Positions 2,701-13,090 of a stretch of 28,167 bases of DNA are shown here, in pieces. Source of the DNA: an uncultured virus (IMG/VR IMGVR_UViG_3300029922_000037) (taxonomy: Duplodnaviria > Heunggongvirae > Uroviricota > Caudoviricetes); the IMG/VR virus record IMGVR_UViG_3300029922_000037. One strand, given 5' to 3'. Numbering within the stretch: the first letter of the stretch is position 1; each line of letters starts with the position of its first letter. The translations under genes were made by a program, and so were the position numbers. The notes under the pieces were generated by a model that saw only the letters and a program-made list of their open reading frames with translations, was not told where the DNA came from and did no database searches.

Positions 2701-3833
2701 TGCGAAATTTCATCAATCGGGCAATCCTTTCAGCAGTTTTATTGTGCTTTTATGCGACCTCTTTCGCGAGCGATTTCAGTCAATTCGCTGGCGGCGGGTC
2801 TGCACTACAACCGGCAATATTTTTTCCCACATCAACAACTTATACAATTCCCGTAACGGGAACCTATCGAGTATCTGTCGAAGGTGGTGGCGGTTCCGGC
2901 GCGGCGTGCTTAAATTCGCCTTGTGCTTCGTCTGGAGGTGGTGGTGGTGGATTCGCGGAGGTTGATCAGTCGTTTATTTCCGGCACGGTTCTGACAATCA
3001 CGGTGGGCGCTGGTGGCGCTGGAATTGCTGAATCGACAGGATCAACTTGCGCGAACGGAAATGCCGGGGGAACTACTAGCGTCACCGCGTCAGGGTTCAC
3101 TACCATTCAAGCGACTGGCGGCAGCGGGGGGACTTGTAGCAAAACAATAAGCGTTACGGGAGGTGCCGGCGGGGTCGGGTCAGGTGGCTCCAACAATCAA
3201 ACAGGCGGCGCGGGCGGCAATGTCACATGGTCTGCATCCGGGATTATCTCGGGCGGAGGCGGCGCGGGCGGATGGCCAAACGGAACTAGCGGCGCGGGCG
3301 GTGCCGGCACTACTCAAAACGGCGCGGGCGGCGGAGGCGGAGTCGGCGGCGCGGGCGGTTCCAGCGGTTCTGGCGGATGTGGCGGAGGCGGCGGTTCTGG
3401 CGGAGTCGGCGGCGTCAGCGTTGGGAGTGCTTGTCCTGGCGGAAGTGCCGGCGTCAATGGACTCCACTTTGCGTCAGCGGCAAGCACGGACGGAGCTTAC
3501 CGCACGGGGGCTGCTTCTGGCTCTGCGACAAACGCGATATCCTTCGGGTTTGATTCTCTGTTCGAACCGTGGCGGGCTATCACGGGCGGGGGTTCACAAG
3601 GAAACGAGCCATCCGTATCCCCTGGGACCGGCGGGGGAAGTGGCGGCAGCACCGCCGGTTTCGCTAGCGGGAATACCGGAATTTTGGGCGGTACTGGTGG
3701 ATGTACAGGAACCTCCTGTATCACGGGCAATTCATCTATTGGTGGTGGTACTGGTGGTGCTGCCTCGTCATCCACGAGTGCAACATCTGGCACGGCGGGC
3801 AGCGGTTTAGTTACCGTTGAAAGGATAAAATAA
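2700..3833 (+). CDS. Glycine-rich adhesin-like protein, paralogue of 1-1113
   Basis: ATG at 2700 overlaps the upstream TAA (TAATG), preferred over the track's 2538 start. N-terminus MRNFINRAILSAVLLCFYATSFA is signal-peptide-like; polyglycine runs; several cysteines. Confidence 0.8.
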   Translation: MRNFINRAILSAVLLCFYATSFASDFSQFAGGGSALQPAIFFPTSTTYTIPVTGTYRVSVEGGGGSGAACLNSPCASSGGGGGGFAEVDQSFISGTVLTITVGAGGAGIAESTGSTCANGNAGGTTSVTASGFTTIQATGGSGGTCSKTISVTGGAGGVGSGGSNNQTGGAGGNVTWSASGIISGGGGAGGWPNGTSGAGGAGTTQNGAGGGGGVGGAGGSSGSGGCGGGGGSGGVGGVSVGSACPGGSAGVNGLHFASAASTDGAYRTGAASGSATNAISFGFDSLFEPWRAITGGGSQGNEPSVSPGTGGGSGGSTAGFASGNTGILGGTGGCTGTSCITGNSSIGGGTGGAASSSTSATSGTAGSGLVTVERIK

Positions 3834-8862: not shown

Positions 8863-9951
8863 TCAAATAACAATGGTTATGCGCTCGGCGGCGCGGGTGA
8901 TTGCGGTGTAGAGATGGTTGATACGATTCTCGCGGAACATGCCGCTCTCGTCGAACAGCATAAGCGTGTCCCATTGTGAACCTTGACTTTTATGAACGGT
9001 AATAACTCTTCCGTATGTGAACTCATCCGATGTCCGTTTCTGACGCCAATCGAGCTTGTCCTCGGTACCGAGAAAGAACTCGTTGAGCACGCTCAAGCGC
9101 CCTGGGTCTGCGAGTCCATCCAGCGACGTCACATCCAGCCCCACGCGGCCATTCTTGTGCTCGACGACATCGCATGTCCACATACTACCGTTCAGGAGCC
9201 CGCGATCACGATTATTTTTCAGGCATATCAGGCGATCACCATGCTCTGGCAGCGGCGACGTGAAGCCTTTCAGCGTGCGGATGCGGGTATTGAATACCTT
9301 GCGGGTCTTGTTCATGCCCACCAGCACCTGGTCGGCCCCAAGAACGTCGGCTTGATCGAGGTCACTGCGGTGGATGATCTTGCTCTCGCCATAGCGCCCG
9401 TATGCGAGTGGTTTTCCGTTTCTGACATCGGTGGCGATCTGGATGATTGGGTTGTCGGCGGCTTGGCGATGGATCTCGGTCAACAACACGTCCGGCTTGT
9501 CGCGCGTGAAATAGCCATCGCCTTCTACCGGCGGTAACTGCATGGGGTCGCCAAGGACAAGGATTTTCACGCCGAATGATTCGAGGTCTCGGCCAAGTTC
9601 TTCATTGACCATCGACACTTCGTCGATGATAATCAACTTGGCCAGCGTGGCCTCGCTGTCTGGATTGCGCTCGTACTCAATCTCCTGGGCGTCGGGGTCG
9701 ACTACCTTGTAGATCAGGCTGTGGATGGTGCGGGCGCCGGCGCAGCCTTTGGACTTGAGCACGAGCGCGGCTTTACCTGTAAATGTCGCGAAAACGACGA
9801 GTCCGTCGACACTGCCAGCGATCTCGCGCGCGAGCGTTGTCTTGCCGACGCCAGCGTACCCGAACAGCCGGAATACCTGCTTGCCGCGTTTATCTCTAAG
9901 CCAATGGCGCACCGATTGCAGCGCGGAGCTCTGTTGTGTCGACCAGTGCAT
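8863..9951 (-). CDS. SF1B helicase, RecD/Dda-like
   Basis: GYAGVGKTT, TFTGKAA, TIHSLIY, IIDEVSMV, LGDPMQLPPV, HRQA, TVHKSQGSQW, YTAITRA. Confidence 0.92.
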   Translation of the reverse strand: MHWSTQQSSALQSVRHWLRDKRGKQVFRLFGYAGVGKTTLAREIAGSVDGLVVFATFTGKAALVLKSKGCAGARTIHSLIYKVVDPDAQEIEYERNPDSEATLAKLIIIDEVSMVNEELGRDLESFGVKILVLGDPMQLPPVEGDGYFTRDKPDVLLTEIHRQAADNPIIQIATDVRNGKPLAYGRYGESKIIHRSDLDQADVLGADQVLVGMNKTRKVFNTRIRTLKGFTSPLPEHGDRLICLKNNRDRGLLNGSMWTCDVVEHKNGRVGLDVTSLDGLADPGRLSVLNEFFLGTEDKLDWRQKRTSDEFTYGRVITVHKSQGSQWDTLMLFDESGMFRENRINHLYTAITRAAERITIVI

Positions 9952-10142: not shown

Positions 10143-10423
10143 GGCTTGCCCGCCAGTCCGCAGTAACCGTAGGCTGATGGTACGTCAATATGCGTCCCAC
10201 TGATATTTTTACCAGGATAGGCAATCCAGCGCCACATAGCGCACTTATCCGCAATGCAGCGGCAGCTTGCAGGAATGCGAGTTCCACCGAGCATGTCTGT
10301 GTTGCAGCCACCGACGATAGTATGAACTGGCTTACTATCTCCACCAGTGGAATAGGTTTCATGGCGCGCACCGCGCACCATCGGGCACCACTTTCCAGTG
10401 GCTTCTTTTACGGTCATAGTCAT
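10139..10423 (-). CDS. Cys-rich hypothetical phage protein
   Basis: Start MTMTVKEA at 10423 overlaps the upstream stop (ATGA); KWCPM..CIADKCAMWRW..GYCGLAG. Confidence 0.75.
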   Translation of the reverse strand: MTMTVKEATGKWCPMVRGARHETYSTGGDSKPVHTIVGGCNTDMLGGTRIPASCRCIADKCAMWRWIAYPGKNISGTHIDVPSAYGYCGLAGKP

Positions 10424-10650
10424 AGCAGTTCCTTCCAAGCCATAAATGGCTCGCGGATGAGTTTGTGGAAGCGCTGGGCGGCGGCTGTGTTGGTGTCCAA
10501 TTTCACTCGCGAATCGATCTCGCACGTATCCAGAATGAACTGCTTTGCCTCTTCGGCGGTCTGGCAGGCACCGCACTGCGTATGCGCCCAGTATTGGAAG
10601 TCGGCGTCACGGCAAAACGTGCAAGCAATGATGCAGAGGTCGCGACTCAT
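10420..10650 (-). CDS. Hypothetical phage protein (76 aa); start codon abuts the IS left end
   Basis: MSRDLCIIACTFCRDADFQYW...CEIDSRVKLD...IREPF; stop coupled to the next gene. Confidence 0.8.
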   Translation of the reverse strand: MSRDLCIIACTFCRDADFQYWAHTQCGACQTAEEAKQFILDTCEIDSRVKLDTNTAAAQRFHKLIREPFMAWKELL

Positions 10651-10752
10651 CAGATTTGCTCCGAGAAACCTCGGCCTTCAGGCCGAGGAGTGAAAGGAGC
10701 CGACTGCGAAGCAGTCGTTGCCTTTCGGTTGAAATACTGGTAACGTGTGCAT

Positions 10753-10884
10753 ATGAAGCGTACAAACACATTCTTACCAGAGCCAATGCTTGCTGAACTG
10801 CGAGCGTTGTCCAATAAGCTCGACGTACCTGTCTCCGAGCTGATCCGTCGCGCTATTGCTGAGTTCTTGAAAACCCAAAAATGA
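10753..10884 (+). CDS. Ribbon-helix-helix (CopG-like) protein, 43 aa (absent from the ORF track)
   Basis: MKRTNTFLPEPMLAELRALSNKLDVPVSELIRRAIAEFLKTQK: strand-helix-helix with SELIRRAI motif; ATGA-coupled to tnpB. Confidence 0.85.
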   Translation: MKRTNTFLPEPMLAELRALSNKLDVPVSELIRRAIAEFLKTQK

Positions 10885-11933
10885 TCCTCGTCTATAGATA
10901 CCGGGTGAAGTCGCTGAACGGATTGCTGAACAAGCAGGCCAGGGCGTGCAACTTCGTCTGGAATTTCTGCAACGACAGGCAGAAGGATGCGCTGCGATTT
11001 CACCGCCGCTGGCATACCGGGTTCGACTTGAACAAGCTCACGCAAGGCAGCAGCAAAGAACTTGGTCTTCACTCCGGCACGGTGAACGCCGTGTGCGAGC
11101 AGTACGCCAAGTCGCGCGCGCAGAAGAAGCGCCCGTACTTGCGCTATCGGGGCAAGAAGAACCTCGGGTGGGTTCCGCTCAAGGGCCGCGAATTGAAGCG
11201 CGAAGGCAGCGCCTTCCGGTTCGCTGGCAATACCTTTCGCGTATTCGACAGTCGCCCGCTCCCTGAGGGGAAAATCAAGGACGGAACGAACTTCTCCAAA
11301 GACTCTCGCGGCAACTGGTTCCTGAACATCGTGATCGACGTTGCCGTTGCTCCTGCCGACGCTCGCAGTCCTGGCCGTGGCGTCGGCATCGACCTTGGCC
11401 TGAAAGACTTTGCCACGCTGTCCACTGGCGAAAAGATCGAGGCGCAGCATATCTACCGAGGCACGGAGCAAGCGCTTGCCGTTGCCCAGCGCGCCGGGAA
11501 GAAACGTCGCGTGAGTGCCATTCACGCAAAGATTTCGAACCGTCGCAACGATTTTCACCACAAACTCTCGACGCGCATCGTTCAAGAGTTTGACTATATC
11601 GCGGTTGGCAACGTGAACGCCGCAGGACTCGCCAAAACCAGCATGGCGAAGTCCGTTTTGGATGCCGGTTGGTCTTCCTTCCGTAGCAAACTTGCGTACA
11701 AGGCTGTTAAGCATGGCGCGTGGTTCGAGGAAGTGAACGAACGTTTTACATCCCAAATCTGTTCGGATTGCGGCTGTTTGCCCGATTCGAGGCCGAAAGG
11801 TATCGCAGACCTTGGAATAAGAGAGTGGCAATGCAGTGACTGTGGTTGCGTACATGATCGTGACACCAATGCTGCGTTAAACATTCTCCGTCGCGGACGT
11901 GCGACGCTAGCTGTAGGAATCCCCGTCCTTTAG
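10881..11933 (+). CDS. tnpB: RNA-guided endonuclease TnpB (350 aa) with rearranged RuvC-II
   Basis: YRYRV..CNFVWN N-terminus; GIDLG (D171); AVGN with Gly243 in place of the canonical Glu; VNERFTS (E287); two CSDC zinc pairs; HDRDTNAA (D328). Confidence 0.95.
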   Translation: MILVYRYRVKSLNGLLNKQARACNFVWNFCNDRQKDALRFHRRWHTGFDLNKLTQGSSKELGLHSGTVNAVCEQYAKSRAQKKRPYLRYRGKKNLGWVPLKGRELKREGSAFRFAGNTFRVFDSRPLPEGKIKDGTNFSKDSRGNWFLNIVIDVAVAPADARSPGRGVGIDLGLKDFATLSTGEKIEAQHIYRGTEQALAVAQRAGKKRRVSAIHAKISNRRNDFHHKLSTRIVQEFDYIAVGNVNAAGLAKTSMAKSVLDAGWSSFRSKLAYKAVKHGAWFEEVNERFTSQICSDCGCLPDSRPKGIADLGIREWQCSDCGCVHDRDTNAALNILRRGRATLAVGIPVL

Positions 11934-11966
11934 GGCGGCGAGGACGTCAAATGGATTCCTTATCGG
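11790..11966 (+). ncRNA. Predicted omega/reRNA of TnpB: scaffold over the tnpB 3' end and right end, guide from the flank ATGGATTCCTTATCGG
   Basis: Inferred from the known architecture of IS200/IS605 TnpB loci. The scaffold/guide boundary at TCAA 11950 is visible; the 5' boundary and guide length are approximate. Confidence 0.55.
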
Positions 11967-11991
11967 CTGGTCGCCCAGCCTGCTGGGTTGA

Positions 11992-13035
11992 TCAGAATAC
12001 TTCGTCGCTGTCGCCGCCCTGGGCATCGCCTTGGTCGTCTGCTGGAGGCGGTTCTGGTTGTTGGTCAGGTTCCGGTTCTGGGGTCGGCGCTGGCGCGGTC
12101 TTCTTCACGACAGCAGCCTTTTTAGGTGTTGGTGCAGAGGCAGTTGTCGACACTGCATCGCCAGCAGATTCCGGTTGCCCAGTAGGGGTGCCAGCGGTTT
12201 TGGCAATCGCAGCCGCAATGGCAGTCTTGGCCGGACTATCTTTCTTTTCGCCGTCTTCCTCGTTGTTGAAATAGGTCGATGCCTTGGCACCATCCTTGAT
12301 CGCGTTGTAAATTCCTGTCAGGTCAACCAGTTCATCGGCTGTGGTATCGTCGACTTGATGCCCAAGGAATTTTGCCAGCATCGCCGCAGAGACGCCCTGC
12401 TTCTTGAACGCATTCGACATTGCCAACAGCCGGTCACTGAGCGGCTTCTCGTTGTCGCCGGCAAGTGTGCGCTTGCATTCGGCGATACCGATCGCGACAA
12501 GATGTTTTGGCATCAGCGCCAGGATGCGTCCGCGCATGATGCGCGCAGCAACGTTCCCGATCCGGTTGTCGATATCGTTTTGGCTCGTGATCGCGCGCGG
12601 GCCTTCCTTTGTGTCCAGGATATGCATGATAGCGATCTGGCGCCGACTGTGATTGTTCTTTTCCATGTCCCATGCGAACACCTCGACTTCGCTTTTGCCA
12701 GCACTACGGCTCAGTTCACGATGCCCATACTGCATATTTCCGTAGCAGCGTGCTGCTTCCTCGGCAAAACGAATCGAGGGACCGCTACCGCGGTTTGATA
12801 CGGCATAGAATGCCACGGCGGCAAAGTCCGGTGACCGGCACGATTCCTTGAATTCTTCGATGGCTGCCACGACGCTGCGCGGAAATCGCTTGGCCAGCGT
12901 CATCTGCCCCTGCGCTTCTGCGATGGCGCGTTCGGATTCGATTGCAACTGCACCGGCGTTGATGCTGGTCGGCACCATGTTGCGGTTGAACGGACTGTCT
13001 CTATTCTGATCGGTTGTTACGACTTCGTTTGCCAT
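11992..13035 (-). CDS. Putative ssDNA-annealing/recombination protein
   Basis: Start MANEV after GGAG. Motifs AKRFPR, GPSIRFAE and AWDMEKN; acidic Pro-rich tail ending DEVF; same operon as the ExoVIII-like nuclease. Function inferred from context. Confidence 0.55.
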   Translation of the reverse strand: MANEVVTTDQNRDSPFNRNMVPTSINAGAVAIESERAIAEAQGQMTLAKRFPRSVVAAIEEFKESCRSPDFAAVAFYAVSNRGSGPSIRFAEEAARCYGNMQYGHRELSRSAGKSEVEVFAWDMEKNNHSRRQIAIMHILDTKEGPRAITSQNDIDNRIGNVAARIMRGRILALMPKHLVAIGIAECKRTLAGDNEKPLSDRLLAMSNAFKKQGVSAAMLAKFLGHQVDDTTADELVDLTGIYNAIKDGAKASTYFNNEEDGEKKDSPAKTAIAAAIAKTAGTPTGQPESAGDAVSTTASAPTPKKAAVVKKTAPAPTPEPEPDQQPEPPPADDQGDAQGGDSDEVF

Positions 13036-13090
13036 GTGGATCTCCAAAATAAATCCCGCTCGGTGCGGGTGTGAAATTGATTATAATTGA

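What the first reader, a model, noticed from the sequence alone, without database searches (positions are those of the whole stretch)
10647..11962. tnpB element inserted exactly between an RBS and its start codon, carrying a replacement RBS in its left end
Seen: the element lies between TCAT (10647-10650) and ATGGATTCCTTA (11951-11962). Deleting it gives TAAGGA-ATCCAT-ATG-AGT on the minus strand, a strong Shine-Dalgarno 6 nt from the start of gene 10420-10650. With the element in place, its left end reads GGAG-CAAATCTG-ATG on the minus strand, a new SD at 8 nt spacing. Established: in IS608, TnpA selects the target by pairing it with a tetranucleotide at the hairpin foot (AAAG/TTAC, GAAT/TCAA). 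By the same rule GAAA at 10665-10668 specifies TCAT. Inference: TCAT is the reverse complement of ATGA, so this lineage may often land just before antisense start codons and rescue the downstream gene's translation. That would be a harm-avoidance strategy suited to gene-dense phage genomes.
Basis: partly seen in the sequence, partly recalled or inferred. Interest (0 to 1): 0.85.

Follow-up and report, generated by a model that had tools for sequence, protein, structure and literature searches.

The report
TnpB transposon splitting a ribosome-binding site
A small transposon of a known family sits exactly between a phage gene's ribosome-binding site and its start codon, brings a look-alike ribosome-binding site of its own, and its relatives sit in the same kind of place, which may explain how such elements persist in tightly packed phage genomes.

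Summary
Bases 10651-11950 are a transposase-less IS200/IS605 element with IS608-like ends. It carries a small ribbon-helix-helix (RHH) gene and tnpB. It lies 3' of TCAT (10647-10650), and that CAT is the antisense start codon of a conserved 76-aa phage gene. The native AAGGA lies in the right flank. The left end reads GGAG 8 nt before the ATG on the minus strand.

The boundaries are supported four ways:
- The IS608 guide/cleavage rule fits.
- Guide and target co-vary in relatives.
- Other copies in peat metagenomes diverge exactly after 11950.
- For a relative with 84-86% TnpB identity, 6 empty alleles join the two flanks exactly, beside 4 occupied ones.

No empty allele of the window's own site was found.

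In 36 related insertions with both ends defined, 16 sit at the first start codon of an ORF of at least 50 codons, against 94 of 946 control TCAT sites. Antisense Shine-Dalgarno (SD) tetramers occur in 55 of 117 left-end spacers, against about 16 in shuffles, mostly 5-7 nt from the junction.

Three results weaken the adaptive reading:
- CTCC is one arm of a conserved left-end helix that other lineages build from other sequences.
- Left ends without an SD sit at start codons just as often.
- Loss of gene-disrupting insertions alone predicts roughly 30% at starts.

Function is untested.

The parts
10420..10650 (-). 76-aa phage gene whose ATG (10648-10650) abuts the left end of the element
   Evidence: ORF. 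Homologues of 77-78% identity have the same length and the same MSRDLCI N-terminus. 12 of 12 related loci have no TnpB match within the fetched flanks of up to 2.5 kb.
10647..10650 (+). TCAT: the target tetranucleotide (left cleavage site, inferred TnpB TAM). On the minus strand it reads ATGA.
   Evidence: 174 of 211 left-end pattern matches have TCAT 8-23 nt 5' of the guide.
10651..10664 (+). Left-end spacer. CTCC at 10659-10662 reads GGAG on the minus strand, 8 nt before the ATG.
   Evidence: Family-wide SD enrichment in this spacer. The spacer's 3' part pairs with the segment after the hairpin in relatives.
10665..10668 (+). Left guide tetranucleotide GAAA
   Evidence: It lies directly 5' of the hairpin foot. 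The IS608 rule (PMC5934647) predicts TCAT. Guide and target co-vary in L032/L033 and L034.
10669..10688 (+). Left subterminal hairpin (8 bp, loop TTCA)
10696..10700 (+). GGAGC, complementary to GCTCC of the spacer (10658-10662): the 3' arm of the family's outer left-end helix
   Evidence: The pairing is not in the minimum-energy fold of the window's own sequence.
10701..10727 (+). Second hairpin with a T-rich tail, terminator-like on the tnpB strand
10747..10884 (+). Ribbon-helix-helix gene (probable ATG at 10753). Its stop overlaps the tnpB start (ATGA).
   Evidence: Pfam RHH_3 2e-8, RHH_1 3e-7
10881..11933 (+). tnpB, 350 aa, with glycine at the position of the canonical RuvC-II glutamate
   Evidence: Pfam. 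Alignment to ISDra2 TnpB chains 8BF8/8EXA.
11917..11950 (+). Right end: guide GAAT (11917-11920), hairpin (11921-11940), cleavage site TCAA (11947-11950, ending 10 nt 3' of the foot)
   Evidence: Contigs of other copies diverge exactly after 11950.
11951..11970 (+). Right flank. Its minus strand carries the native SD (AAGGA, 11955-11959, within TAAGGA at 11955-11960). It is also the inferred target of the element's guide RNA.
   Evidence: The guide-RNA role is inferred from TnpB biology (passages of the Meers et al. 2023 preprint).
11992..13047 (-). Upstream gene of the same minus-strand operon. Its stop lies 41 nt before the native start of the 76-aa gene.
   Evidence: A relative with 64% identity is in L003.

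Best explanation
Bases 10651-11950 are a non-autonomous IS200/IS605 element with IS608-type ends.

How it got there. A Y1 TnpA supplied in trans inserted it as single-stranded DNA 3' of TCAT. The left-end guide GAAA selects that tetranucleotide by base pairing.

Why start codons. TCAT is the complement of ATGA. In a genome that is about 92% coding, most TCAT sites that can be hit without destroying a gene are therefore antisense start codons. The lineage accumulates just upstream of start codons, antisense to the gene.

Why it is tolerated. An insertion there separates the native SD from the ATG. In this lineage the pyrimidine arm of the outer left-end helix reads GGAG on the other strand, 5-8 nt from the junction. 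This probably serves as a substitute ribosome-binding site on read-through transcripts.

Persistence (inferred). TnpB, guided by the right flank with TCAT as its TAM, would cut empty alleles and favour retention or homing of the element.

Shown: the anatomy, the boundaries, the target rule, the start-codon bias and the SD enrichment.
Inferred: that the SD is used, that transcription reads through the element, and that TnpB is active.
For: Anatomy. The ends match IS608: a guide 5' of each hairpin foot, TCAA ending 10 nt 3' of the right foot, and the left cleavage site 18 nt 5' of the left foot.

Guide and target. GAAA goes with TCAT in 8 independent contexts, AAAA with TTAT, and GAAG with TCAC.

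Empty alleles. For the relative L006-L009, 6 contigs join the flanks exactly at TCAT, and 4 are occupied.

Autonomous relatives. L022 carries Y1_Tnp (7.7e-39), transcribed towards the left end.

Start-codon bias. 16 of 36 insertions against 94 of 946 control TCAT sites, odds ratio 7.3, p = 2e-7. On the left flank alone, 97 of 141 against 560 of 1658 open an ORF of at least 60 codons.

Close lineage (TnpB at least 65% identical, both ends seen). 6 of 10 are clear starts: the window, L005, L009, L022 (= L074), L027 and L168.

SD in the left end.
- 55 of 117 spacers carry an antisense SD tetramer, against 15.7 +/- 3.4 in shuffles (maximum 27 in 1000). Only 3 carry one on the sense strand.
- Of the 54 spacers with GGAG or GAGG, 46 have it 5-7 nt from the junction.
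- 47 of 91 sequence clusters are of the SD type. Viral contigs have 37 of 55 and genome contigs 30 of 76, p = 0.0025.
- At the strict start sites the left-end SD is at or below -5 kcal/mol in 12 of 16, and the native SD in 7 of 16.

Persistence. The insertion is present in all 3 metagenome contigs that hold the left flank and on contigs of all 4 peat runs laid.
Against: - Left ends without an SD precede long antisense ORFs as often as left ends with one (46 of 69 against 51 of 72, p = 0.72). The SD is therefore not needed for residence at a start codon.
- CTCC is one arm of a co-varying helix. It could be kept for the transposase or for a terminator on the tnpB strand.
- The window's own GGAG is no stronger than 11.7% of random 20-mers.
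- Two of the three close relatives that lack it (L010, L029) sit where the junction ATG opens only 36 and 7 codons. The third (L168) sits at a 469-codon ORF.
- No outward-facing sigma-70 promoter was found. Read-through must cross 1.3 kb against the element's own transcription.
- The crude survivorship estimate (11 of 36 non-intragenic TCAT sites at starts) is not clearly below the observed 16 of 36.
- The related sequences are not independent of one another.
- ORF-based start calls are rough in G+C-rich DNA: 10% of control sites pass the strict test.
Confidence: 0.5

Rival explanations
1. The same element and the same target rule, but the GGAG has no role in translation. It is simply the complement of the pyrimidine arm of a left-end helix that serves transposase binding or blocks incoming transcription. 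Insertions at start codons are just the survivors among TCAT sites. The 76-aa gene is dispensable, is expressed poorly, or is translated without a good SD.
For: - The helix co-varies with many arm sequences.
- In several relatives the 3' arm is followed by GGTTTT, as in a terminator (sequences printed).
- Left ends without an SD are at start codons equally often.
- About 30% of tolerated TCAT sites in this window are starts.
- The window's SD score is unremarkable.
Against: - Strand asymmetry: 55 spacers with SD tetramers on the antisense strand against 3 on the sense strand. A helix alone would allow either polarity.
- 3.5-fold excess over composition-matched shuffles.
- Enrichment on viral contigs.
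- SD-type arms recur in 47 of 91 clusters, in records titled Streptomyces, Kitasatospora, Serratia, Gluconacetobacter, Bordetella and Polaromonas, among others.
Confidence: 0.35
2. Active targeting. Purine-rich segments of the single-stranded transposon (AGGAA next to both hairpins, GGAG after the left hairpin) pair with the pyrimidine-rich complement of an SD that lies 3' of TCAT in the target strand. Sites between an SD and an ATG would then be preferred at the integration step, not only retained afterwards.
For: - In the window, AGGAATCC of the right end (11915-11922) is complementary to GGATTCCT of the right flank (11953-11960) and pairs with it in the DNA fold.
- Extended transposon-target pairing can redirect IS608 in vitro (PMC5934647, passages).
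- The native right flank reaches an SD score of -5 kcal/mol or better in 19 of 36 events, against 18% of random 20-mers.
Against: - An SD in the right flank is expected anyway at a start codon, so the data cannot separate cause from consequence.
- In IS608 the engineered pairing was with target DNA 5' of the cleavage site, not 3' of it.
- The 8-nt match in the window is a single case, and the fold is not better than shuffles (z = -0.66).
- 9 of the 16 strict start sites have a weak native SD.
Confidence: 0.1
3. The element is kept for a host or phage function. TnpB with its guide RNA, or the RHH protein, would bind at the junction and regulate the downstream early genes. The position at the ribosome-binding site would then reflect regulation, not harm avoidance.
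For: - The inferred guide covers the native SD region.
- An RHH DNA-binding gene travels with tnpB here and in 5 relatives.
- TnpB-derived transcription regulators have been described (title and abstract of PMC10705468 in the listing).
Against: - Both RuvC aspartates are kept, and the glycine variant is read in the literature as a rearranged, probably active site (PMC10691335).
- In the occupied state the guide's match is preceded by TCAA, not by the TAM.
- The same element type sits at unrelated genes in other phages.
- Empty alleles of a relative coexist with occupied ones.
Confidence: 0.05

Closest known systems
IS608 of Helicobacter pylori (IS200/IS605 family)
   Same: Subterminal hairpins at both ends. 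A 4-nt guide 5' of each hairpin foot pairs with the cleavage site. The right guide GAAT and right cleavage site TCAA are identical to IS608, and TCAA ends 10 nt 3' of the foot. Insertion is 3' of a tetranucleotide with no target duplication. There is a second small hairpin after the left one (PMC3201880, PMC5934647, passages).
   Different: The left guide is GAAA with target TCAT, instead of AAAG with TTAC. The left cleavage site is 16-18 nt from the foot instead of 19. This copy has no tnpA. It carries an RHH gene. Its TnpB has glycine at the RuvC-II glutamate position.
ISGst5 of Geobacillus stearothermophilus (IscB element with TAM TTCAT) and the flanking-transcription orientation bias reported for IscB elements
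   Same: The target/TAM is TTCAT. The elements are oriented so that outside transcription runs through them (Meers et al. 2023 preprint, passages). IscB-type cargo also occurs on the left-end family sampled here (L143, L161, L188, L201).
   Different: That work explains the bias by guide-RNA biogenesis and reports no such bias for TnpB. In the passages I read, residence at start codons and a left-end SD are not mentioned.
IStrons (IS605-type elements fused to a group I intron)
   Same: Selfish IS200/IS605-type elements that limit harm to the interrupted gene (abstracts of PMC4227781 and PMC10690162 in the listing).
   Different: IStrons repair the mRNA by splicing. Here the proposal is replacement of the ribosome-binding site, with no ribozyme.
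IS200 of Salmonella (left-end terminator hairpin and a structure that hides the tnpA ribosome-binding site)
   Same: A left-end stem-loop that stops incoming transcription, and RNA structure around an SD. This is recalled knowledge. Only titles and abstracts of related papers were seen (PMC4513863).
   Different: In IS200 the SD in question serves the element's own tnpA on the sense strand. Here the SD-like sequence faces outward on the opposite strand.
TnpB clade RIIr-5 (Altae-Tran et al. 2023, PMC10691335)
   Same: Glycine replaces the RuvC-II glutamate. The DRDxN motif in RuvC-III is kept.
   Different: That paper links an RHH/MazE-like partner to another clade (RIIIr-4, histidine in RuvC-III). 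Here an RHH gene accompanies a TnpB with aspartate in RuvC-III. Clade placement by tree was not done.

Membership tests
IS200/IS605 family, IS608-like ends | Subterminal imperfect hairpins at both ends, no terminal inverted repeats | tested here: met
   Hairpins at 10669-10688 and 11921-11940. The same architecture is seen in relatives.
IS200/IS605 family, IS608-like ends | The tetranucleotide guide 5' of each hairpin foot matches the cleavage site by the IS608 pairing rule (guide base 1 with cleavage base 2, 2 with 1, 4 with 4) | tested here: met
   GAAA with TCAT and GAAT with TCAA in the window. AAAA with TTAT and GAAG with TCAC in relatives. The rule was read in PMC5934647.
IS200/IS605 family, IS608-like ends | Insertion 3' of the target tetranucleotide without target-site duplication; excision restores the site | tested here: met
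   Shown for the homologous element L006-L009: 6 empty alleles join the flanks exactly. No empty allele of the window's own site was found.
IS200/IS605 family, IS608-like ends | Y1 (HUH) transposase TnpA | tested here: not met
   No tnpA lies between the ends in the window, so this copy is non-autonomous. Relative L022 has Y1_Tnp at 7.7e-39. L026 has a similar antisense ORF (seen, not scanned).
IS200/IS605 family, IS608-like ends | TnpB with a RuvC-like domain and a zinc finger, and a guide RNA overlapping its 3' end and the right end | tested here: inconclusive
   The protein domains are met. For the RNA there is only a sub-threshold Rfam match to HgcC at 11842-11963 (18.1 bits against a cutoff of 50, E = 0.23). 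No RNA data were available.
TnpB clade RIIr-5 | Catalytic glutamate of RuvC-II replaced by glycine, with a compensating glutamate elsewhere | tested here: inconclusive
   Glycine aligns with the glutamate of the ISDra2 segment GTEHL, which I recall as E278; the call prints no residue numbers. The compensating glutamate and the tree position were not tested.
   Present and well spaced in the window, and in 9 of 12 distinct left ends of the close lineage. Enriched across the family. It is part of a co-varying helix. Need for translation cannot be tested with these tools.

The most novel reading that the evidence does not exclude
A large, cross-phylum group of IS200/IS605 elements with the TCAT/TTCAT target has an end architecture that makes it a start-codon squatter. 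The group carries TnpB, IscB, TnpA alone, or nothing at all (46-51-nt mini-elements). The target is the complement of ATGA. The outer left-end helix is placed so that its pyrimidine arm becomes an outward-facing Shine-Dalgarno sequence 5-7 nt from the junction. Insertion then exchanges the downstream gene's ribosome-binding site instead of destroying it. This would be selected most strongly in phage genomes. It would also leave behind portable hairpin-plus-SD modules in operons.
Probability: 0.35. Interest if true: 0.75.

Novelty: new variant of a known kind. Interest (0 to 1): 0.62.

Why it matters
IS200/IS605 elements and their TnpB and IscB nucleases are abundant and are the ancestors of Cas12 and Cas9. 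How they persist in genomes with almost no spare DNA, such as phages, is only partly understood. The described routes are RNA-guided homing and, for IStrons, self-splicing.

If the left end really supplies a ribosome-binding site, this would be a third, purely sequence-encoded way of limiting harm. Four things would follow:
- It would explain an orientation and position bias.
- It would predict where such elements can be found, and where TnpB guides point: at conserved junctions between an SD and a start codon.
- It would identify 47-nt mini-elements as natural portable translation-initiation modules.
- It is directly testable with reporter fusions.

If it does not, the finding still documents with empty alleles that a TCAT-targeting lineage accumulates at start codons.

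Tried and rejected
- Empty allele of the window's own site: not found. Exact-match scans with the left flank (metagenome contigs) and the right flank (viral contigs) returned only occupied copies.
- Protein-based scans with the flanking genes gave only distant relatives with other gene orders.
- Laying contigs of 4 peat runs showed no joint across the element. Contigs drop rare variants, so this says nothing about absence.
- No listed sequencing run is on record as RNA, so expression could not be examined.
- Megablast of 5 kb against GenBank phages gave one short, irrelevant match.
- Ralstonia phages with TnpBs of 48-49% identity have tnpB in the same direction as their neighbours and belong to another subgroup. 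I did not pursue them.
- A greedy ORF gene model was too crude to classify the insertion sites: 17 of 36 were called intragenic because of over-long start calls, and it missed the 76-aa gene itself. I used it only for a rough survivorship estimate.
- I tested whether left ends without an SD instead have an antisense ORF ending near the junction, which would allow translational coupling. The result was not significant (10 of 49 against 13 of 45, p = 0.47) and was polluted by spurious ORFs.
- The spacer/post-hairpin pairing is not in the minimum-energy fold of the window's own sequence.
- Scan for an outward-facing promoter: none found.
- A second empty-allele scan, for L005, found only the occupied contig itself.
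- Literature. Three searches (IS200 + IS605 + TCAT + target + TnpA; TnpB + TCAT + TAM; IS200 + 'between the ribosome binding' + start codon + insertion sequence), and one on TnpB, bacteriophage and ribosome binding site, found no description of start-codon targeting or of a left-end SD. Subscription papers and supplements were not seen.
Full report
**What is there**

The window is part of a 67-kb IMG/VR virus record, and the element is present once in it. Bases 10651-11950 carry, on the + strand:
- a 45-codon ribbon-helix-helix (RHH) ORF at 10747-10884 (Pfam RHH_3, 2e-8);
- a 350-aa TnpB at 10881-11933 (Cas12f1-like_TNB 4e-23, OrfB_IS605 1.5e-15).

The surrounding genes all run on the minus strand. 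They are a 351-aa gene (11992-13047), the 76-aa gene 10420-10650, small ORFs, and a RecD/PIF1-like helicase at 8863-9951. The element therefore lies antisense inside a phage early operon.

**Ends**

The left end has TCAT (10647-10650, flank), an 18-nt stretch, and an 8-bp hairpin (10669-10688). The last four bases of the 18-nt stretch are GAAA (10665-10668).

The right end has GAAT (11917-11920), a hairpin (11921-11940), six bases, and TCAA (11947-11950).

This is the anatomy of IS608. Passages of PMC3201880 and PMC5934647 give these points:
- the left cleavage site is TTAC, 19 nt 5' of the left hairpin foot;
- the right cleavage site is TCAA, 10 nt 3' of the right foot;
- the guides AAAG and GAAT lie directly 5' of the feet;
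- the pairs are A+16:T-3 and A+17:T-4.

From these I derive a rule: guide base 1 pairs with cleavage base 2, base 2 with base 1, and base 4 with base 4. Under that rule GAAT specifies TCAA, exactly as in IS608, and GAAA specifies TCAT.

**Boundaries tested with relatives**

A protein-based scan of viral contigs gave 31 loci with TnpB relatives of 53-100% identity.
- 14 have a recognisable left hairpin. TCAT goes with GAAA (or GAGA in L026) in L005, L006-L009 (one event), L010, L022, L026, L027 and L029. TTAT goes with AAAA in L032/L033. TCAC goes with GAAG in L034.
- 17 have an intact right end but no left hairpin.

A pattern scan for the guide plus hairpin gave 211 oriented matches in viral and genome contigs. 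It left out the spacer, so it does not bias the SD question. Of the 211, 174 have TCAT 8-23 nt 5' of the guide.

Contigs from four peat runs contain other family copies. These match the window only up to 11950 and then diverge. One further copy matches only from 10661 onwards and has TTCAT before its own left end.

Most directly, the left flank of the L006-L009 element (TnpB 84-86% identical to the window's) occurs on 10 viral contigs. Four carry the element. Six read the left flank ending in TCAT, followed at once by the sequence that follows TCAA in the occupied contigs. This shows precise insertion 3' of TCAT with no duplication for this lineage.

No empty allele of the window's own site was found.

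**The split ribosome-binding site**

On the minus strand the right flank ends TAAGGAATCCAT and the left flank begins ATGAGT. The TAA is in frame, so the ATG at 10650 is the first possible start.

The gene is real:
- Two homologues of 77-78% identity are also 76 aa long and start MSRDLCI.
- Eleven more distant relatives in other viral contigs, plus L036, have no TnpB match within the fetched flanks of up to 2.5 kb (0 of 12).
- Several of them start ATGAGC with an SD directly upstream.

With the element in place, the minus strand reads GGAG, eight bases, then the ATG.

**Do relatives do the same?**

Yes, often. For 36 distinct insertions with both ends defined, I rebuilt the empty site inside a script.
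- 29 have a junction ATG that opens at least 50 codons.
- In 16 of these it is also the first start after an in-frame stop.
- In the other 13 there are alternative upstream starts or no upstream stop.
- In 7 the ORF is shorter than 50 codons.

The strict criterion is met by 94 of 946 other TCAT sites in the same sequences (odds ratio 7.3, Fisher p = 2e-7).

Using left flanks only, 97 of 141 junction ATGs open at least 60 codons, against 560 of 1658 control sites.

In the close lineage (TnpB at least 65% identical, both ends seen):
- 6 of 10 are clear starts: the window, L005, L009, L022, L027 and L168;
- 2 are ambiguous: L010 (a 36-codon ORF behind a strong native SD) and L181;
- 2 are not starts: L029 (7 codons) and L199 (in frame inside a long ORF).

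**How much of this is mere survival?**

With the element removed, a crude gene map of the window is 92% coding. Of 218 TCAT sites on both strands, 182 are intragenic, 25 are intergenic and 11 are at predicted antisense starts. If every non-disruptive site were equally tolerated, about 30% of surviving insertions would be at start codons. The map is rough and missed the 76-aa gene itself.

The observed 44% (strict) to roughly two thirds (lenient) is therefore not clearly above what target specificity plus purifying selection would give.

What the data do show is that insertions between an SD and an ATG are tolerated about as well as other intergenic ones.

**The left-end SD**

Results in favour:
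- Among 117 distinct spacers, 55 carry GGAG, GAGG or AGGA on the antisense strand. Composition-matched shuffles give 15.7 +/- 3.4 (maximum 27 in 1000). Only 3 spacers carry these tetramers on the sense strand.
- Of the 54 spacers with GGAG or GAGG, 46 have it 5-7 nt from the junction.
- Clustering by the 60 nt after the hairpin gives 47 SD-type clusters of 91. SD types make up 37 of 55 viral and 30 of 76 genome events (p = 0.0025).
- At the 16 strict start sites, the left-end SD reaches -5 kcal/mol or better in 12 and the native SD in 7. Among random 20-mers, 18% reach that value.
- In the close lineage, 9 of 12 distinct left ends have the motif.

Results against:
- The spacer's 3' part is complementary to the bases that follow AGGAA(A) after the hairpin, with many compensatory pairs: GCCTCC/GGAGGC, CGTCTCC/GGAGACG, TGCGCGT/ACGCGCA, GCGGCGT/ACGCCGC, ACAGCAT/ATGCTGT and CCAAGT/ACTTGG. 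The mean longest complement is 4.76. It is 4.31 +/- 0.07 against other elements' post-hairpin segments and 4.17 +/- 0.08 with shuffled spacers. In each control, 0 of 200 trials reached the observed value.
- Left ends without an SD precede long ORFs as often as left ends with one (46 of 69 against 51 of 72, p = 0.72).
- The window's own GGAG scores -5.8 kcal/mol, which 11.7% of random 20-mers reach.

The strong strand polarity, the excess over shuffles and the viral enrichment keep the adaptive reading alive. The helix and the lack of association keep the by-product reading alive.

**How it most likely works**

1. Shown. This is an IS608-type, transposase-less element. Autonomous relatives exist: L022 carries Y1_Tnp (7.7e-39), transcribed towards the left end and ending 64 nt before the junction.
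2. Shown for the family. It inserts 3' of TCAT, which the left guide selects.
3. Inferred, well supported. Because TCAT is the complement of ATGA, the surviving copies pile up just before antisense start codons.
4. Inferred, about even odds. The left end's outward-facing GGAG substitutes for the displaced SD on read-through transcripts.
5. Inferred from published TnpB biology (passages of the Meers et al. 2023 preprint). TnpB, with a guide copied from the right flank and TCAT as its TAM, cuts empty alleles and favours retention or homing.

On the nuclease: both RuvC aspartates are kept. Glycine stands at the position of the ISDra2 RuvC-II glutamate, which I recall as E278. PMC10691335 describes this pattern for clade RIIr-5 and reads it as a rearranged, probably active site.

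No outward promoter was seen. The downstream genes, including the helicase, must therefore depend on transcription across the element. The insertion is present in every copy of this phage that I could see.

**Comparison with what is known**

The element is a member of IS200/IS605, and its ends work like those of IS608. A TTCAT TAM is published for the IscB element ISGst5, together with an orientation bias of IscB elements towards flanking transcription, which the authors attribute to guide-RNA biogenesis. IStrons are the known harm-limiting IS605 derivatives, and they work by splicing (listing).

Four searches found no description of start-codon residence or of a left-end SD. Subscription literature and supplements were not seen.

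This is a parallel case on other DNA, and I did not check it.

**Verdict**

This is a new variant of a known kind, of moderate to good interest, and it can be tested cheaply at the bench.

Noticed in passing
window 10747-10884; loci L005, L018, L027, L028, L029: An RHH gene sits directly before tnpB, with its stop overlapping the tnpB start. It is present in the window and in 5 relatives, and absent in others of similar TnpB identity (L006-L010). A -10-like box lies 6-8 nt before the first ATG in all of them, which suggests a leaderless or near-leaderless mRNA. PMC10691335 links an RHH/MazE-like partner to a different TnpB clade (RIIIr-4).
   Followed up: partly
L049, L111, L120, L186, L071, L087 (left-end pattern at about 2501 in each): Elements only 46-51 nt long: TCAT, then spacer, guide, a single hairpin, 5-6 nt and TCAA. 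L049 and L111 sit before 114- and 410-codon ORFs. On the gene's strand they contribute a hairpin followed by GGAGGC 6 nt before the ATG.
   Followed up: partly
L031 (upstream of tnpB at 2501 and after the right end at 3562), L011, L030: Some relatives without a left hairpin repeat the first 8-10 nt of the right flank directly after the left junction (L031 10 nt, L011 and L030 8 nt). In L031 this keeps the native SD next to the start codon. This could be a trace of imprecise repair or homing. The other 9 of 12 such loci show no such repeat.
   Followed up: partly
L266, L269, L270, L273, L274 compared with L275 and L009: Five of the six empty alleles of the L006-L009 site differ from the occupied right flank at base 11 after TCAT (A to G), and L270 also at base 8. 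These positions fall inside the stretch a TnpB guide would match. This could be escape from cleavage or plain divergence.
   Followed up: no
window 11915-11922 and 11953-11960: AGGAATCC of the right end, which includes the guide GAAT, is the exact complement of GGATTCCT in the right flank (the native SD region). The two pair in the DNA fold, although the fold is no better than shuffles.
   Followed up: no
L143, L161, L188, L201: The same left-end hairpin family with TCAT also carries IscB-like genes (N-terminal ...ALMPC.EKRARLLL...). These lie on the opposite strand and end 22-55 nt from the junction. Their spacers are of the GCGCG type, without an SD. I named them IscB from recalled motifs and did not scan them.
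   Followed up: no
L012, L013, L019 (about 80-230 nt upstream of tnpB): A 49-aa gene that looks helix-turn-helix-like lies divergent from tnpB, with an inverted repeat between them.
   Followed up: no
window 11842-11963 (+): Sub-threshold Rfam match to HgcC (18.1 bits, cutoff 50, E = 0.23). It covers the tnpB 3' end, the right end and 13 nt of flank, which is where a TnpB guide RNA is expected.
   Followed up: no
window 11965-11980: A GGCTGG/CCAGCC hairpin lies in the 41-nt spacer between the stop of gene 11992-13047 and the native SD.
   Followed up: no
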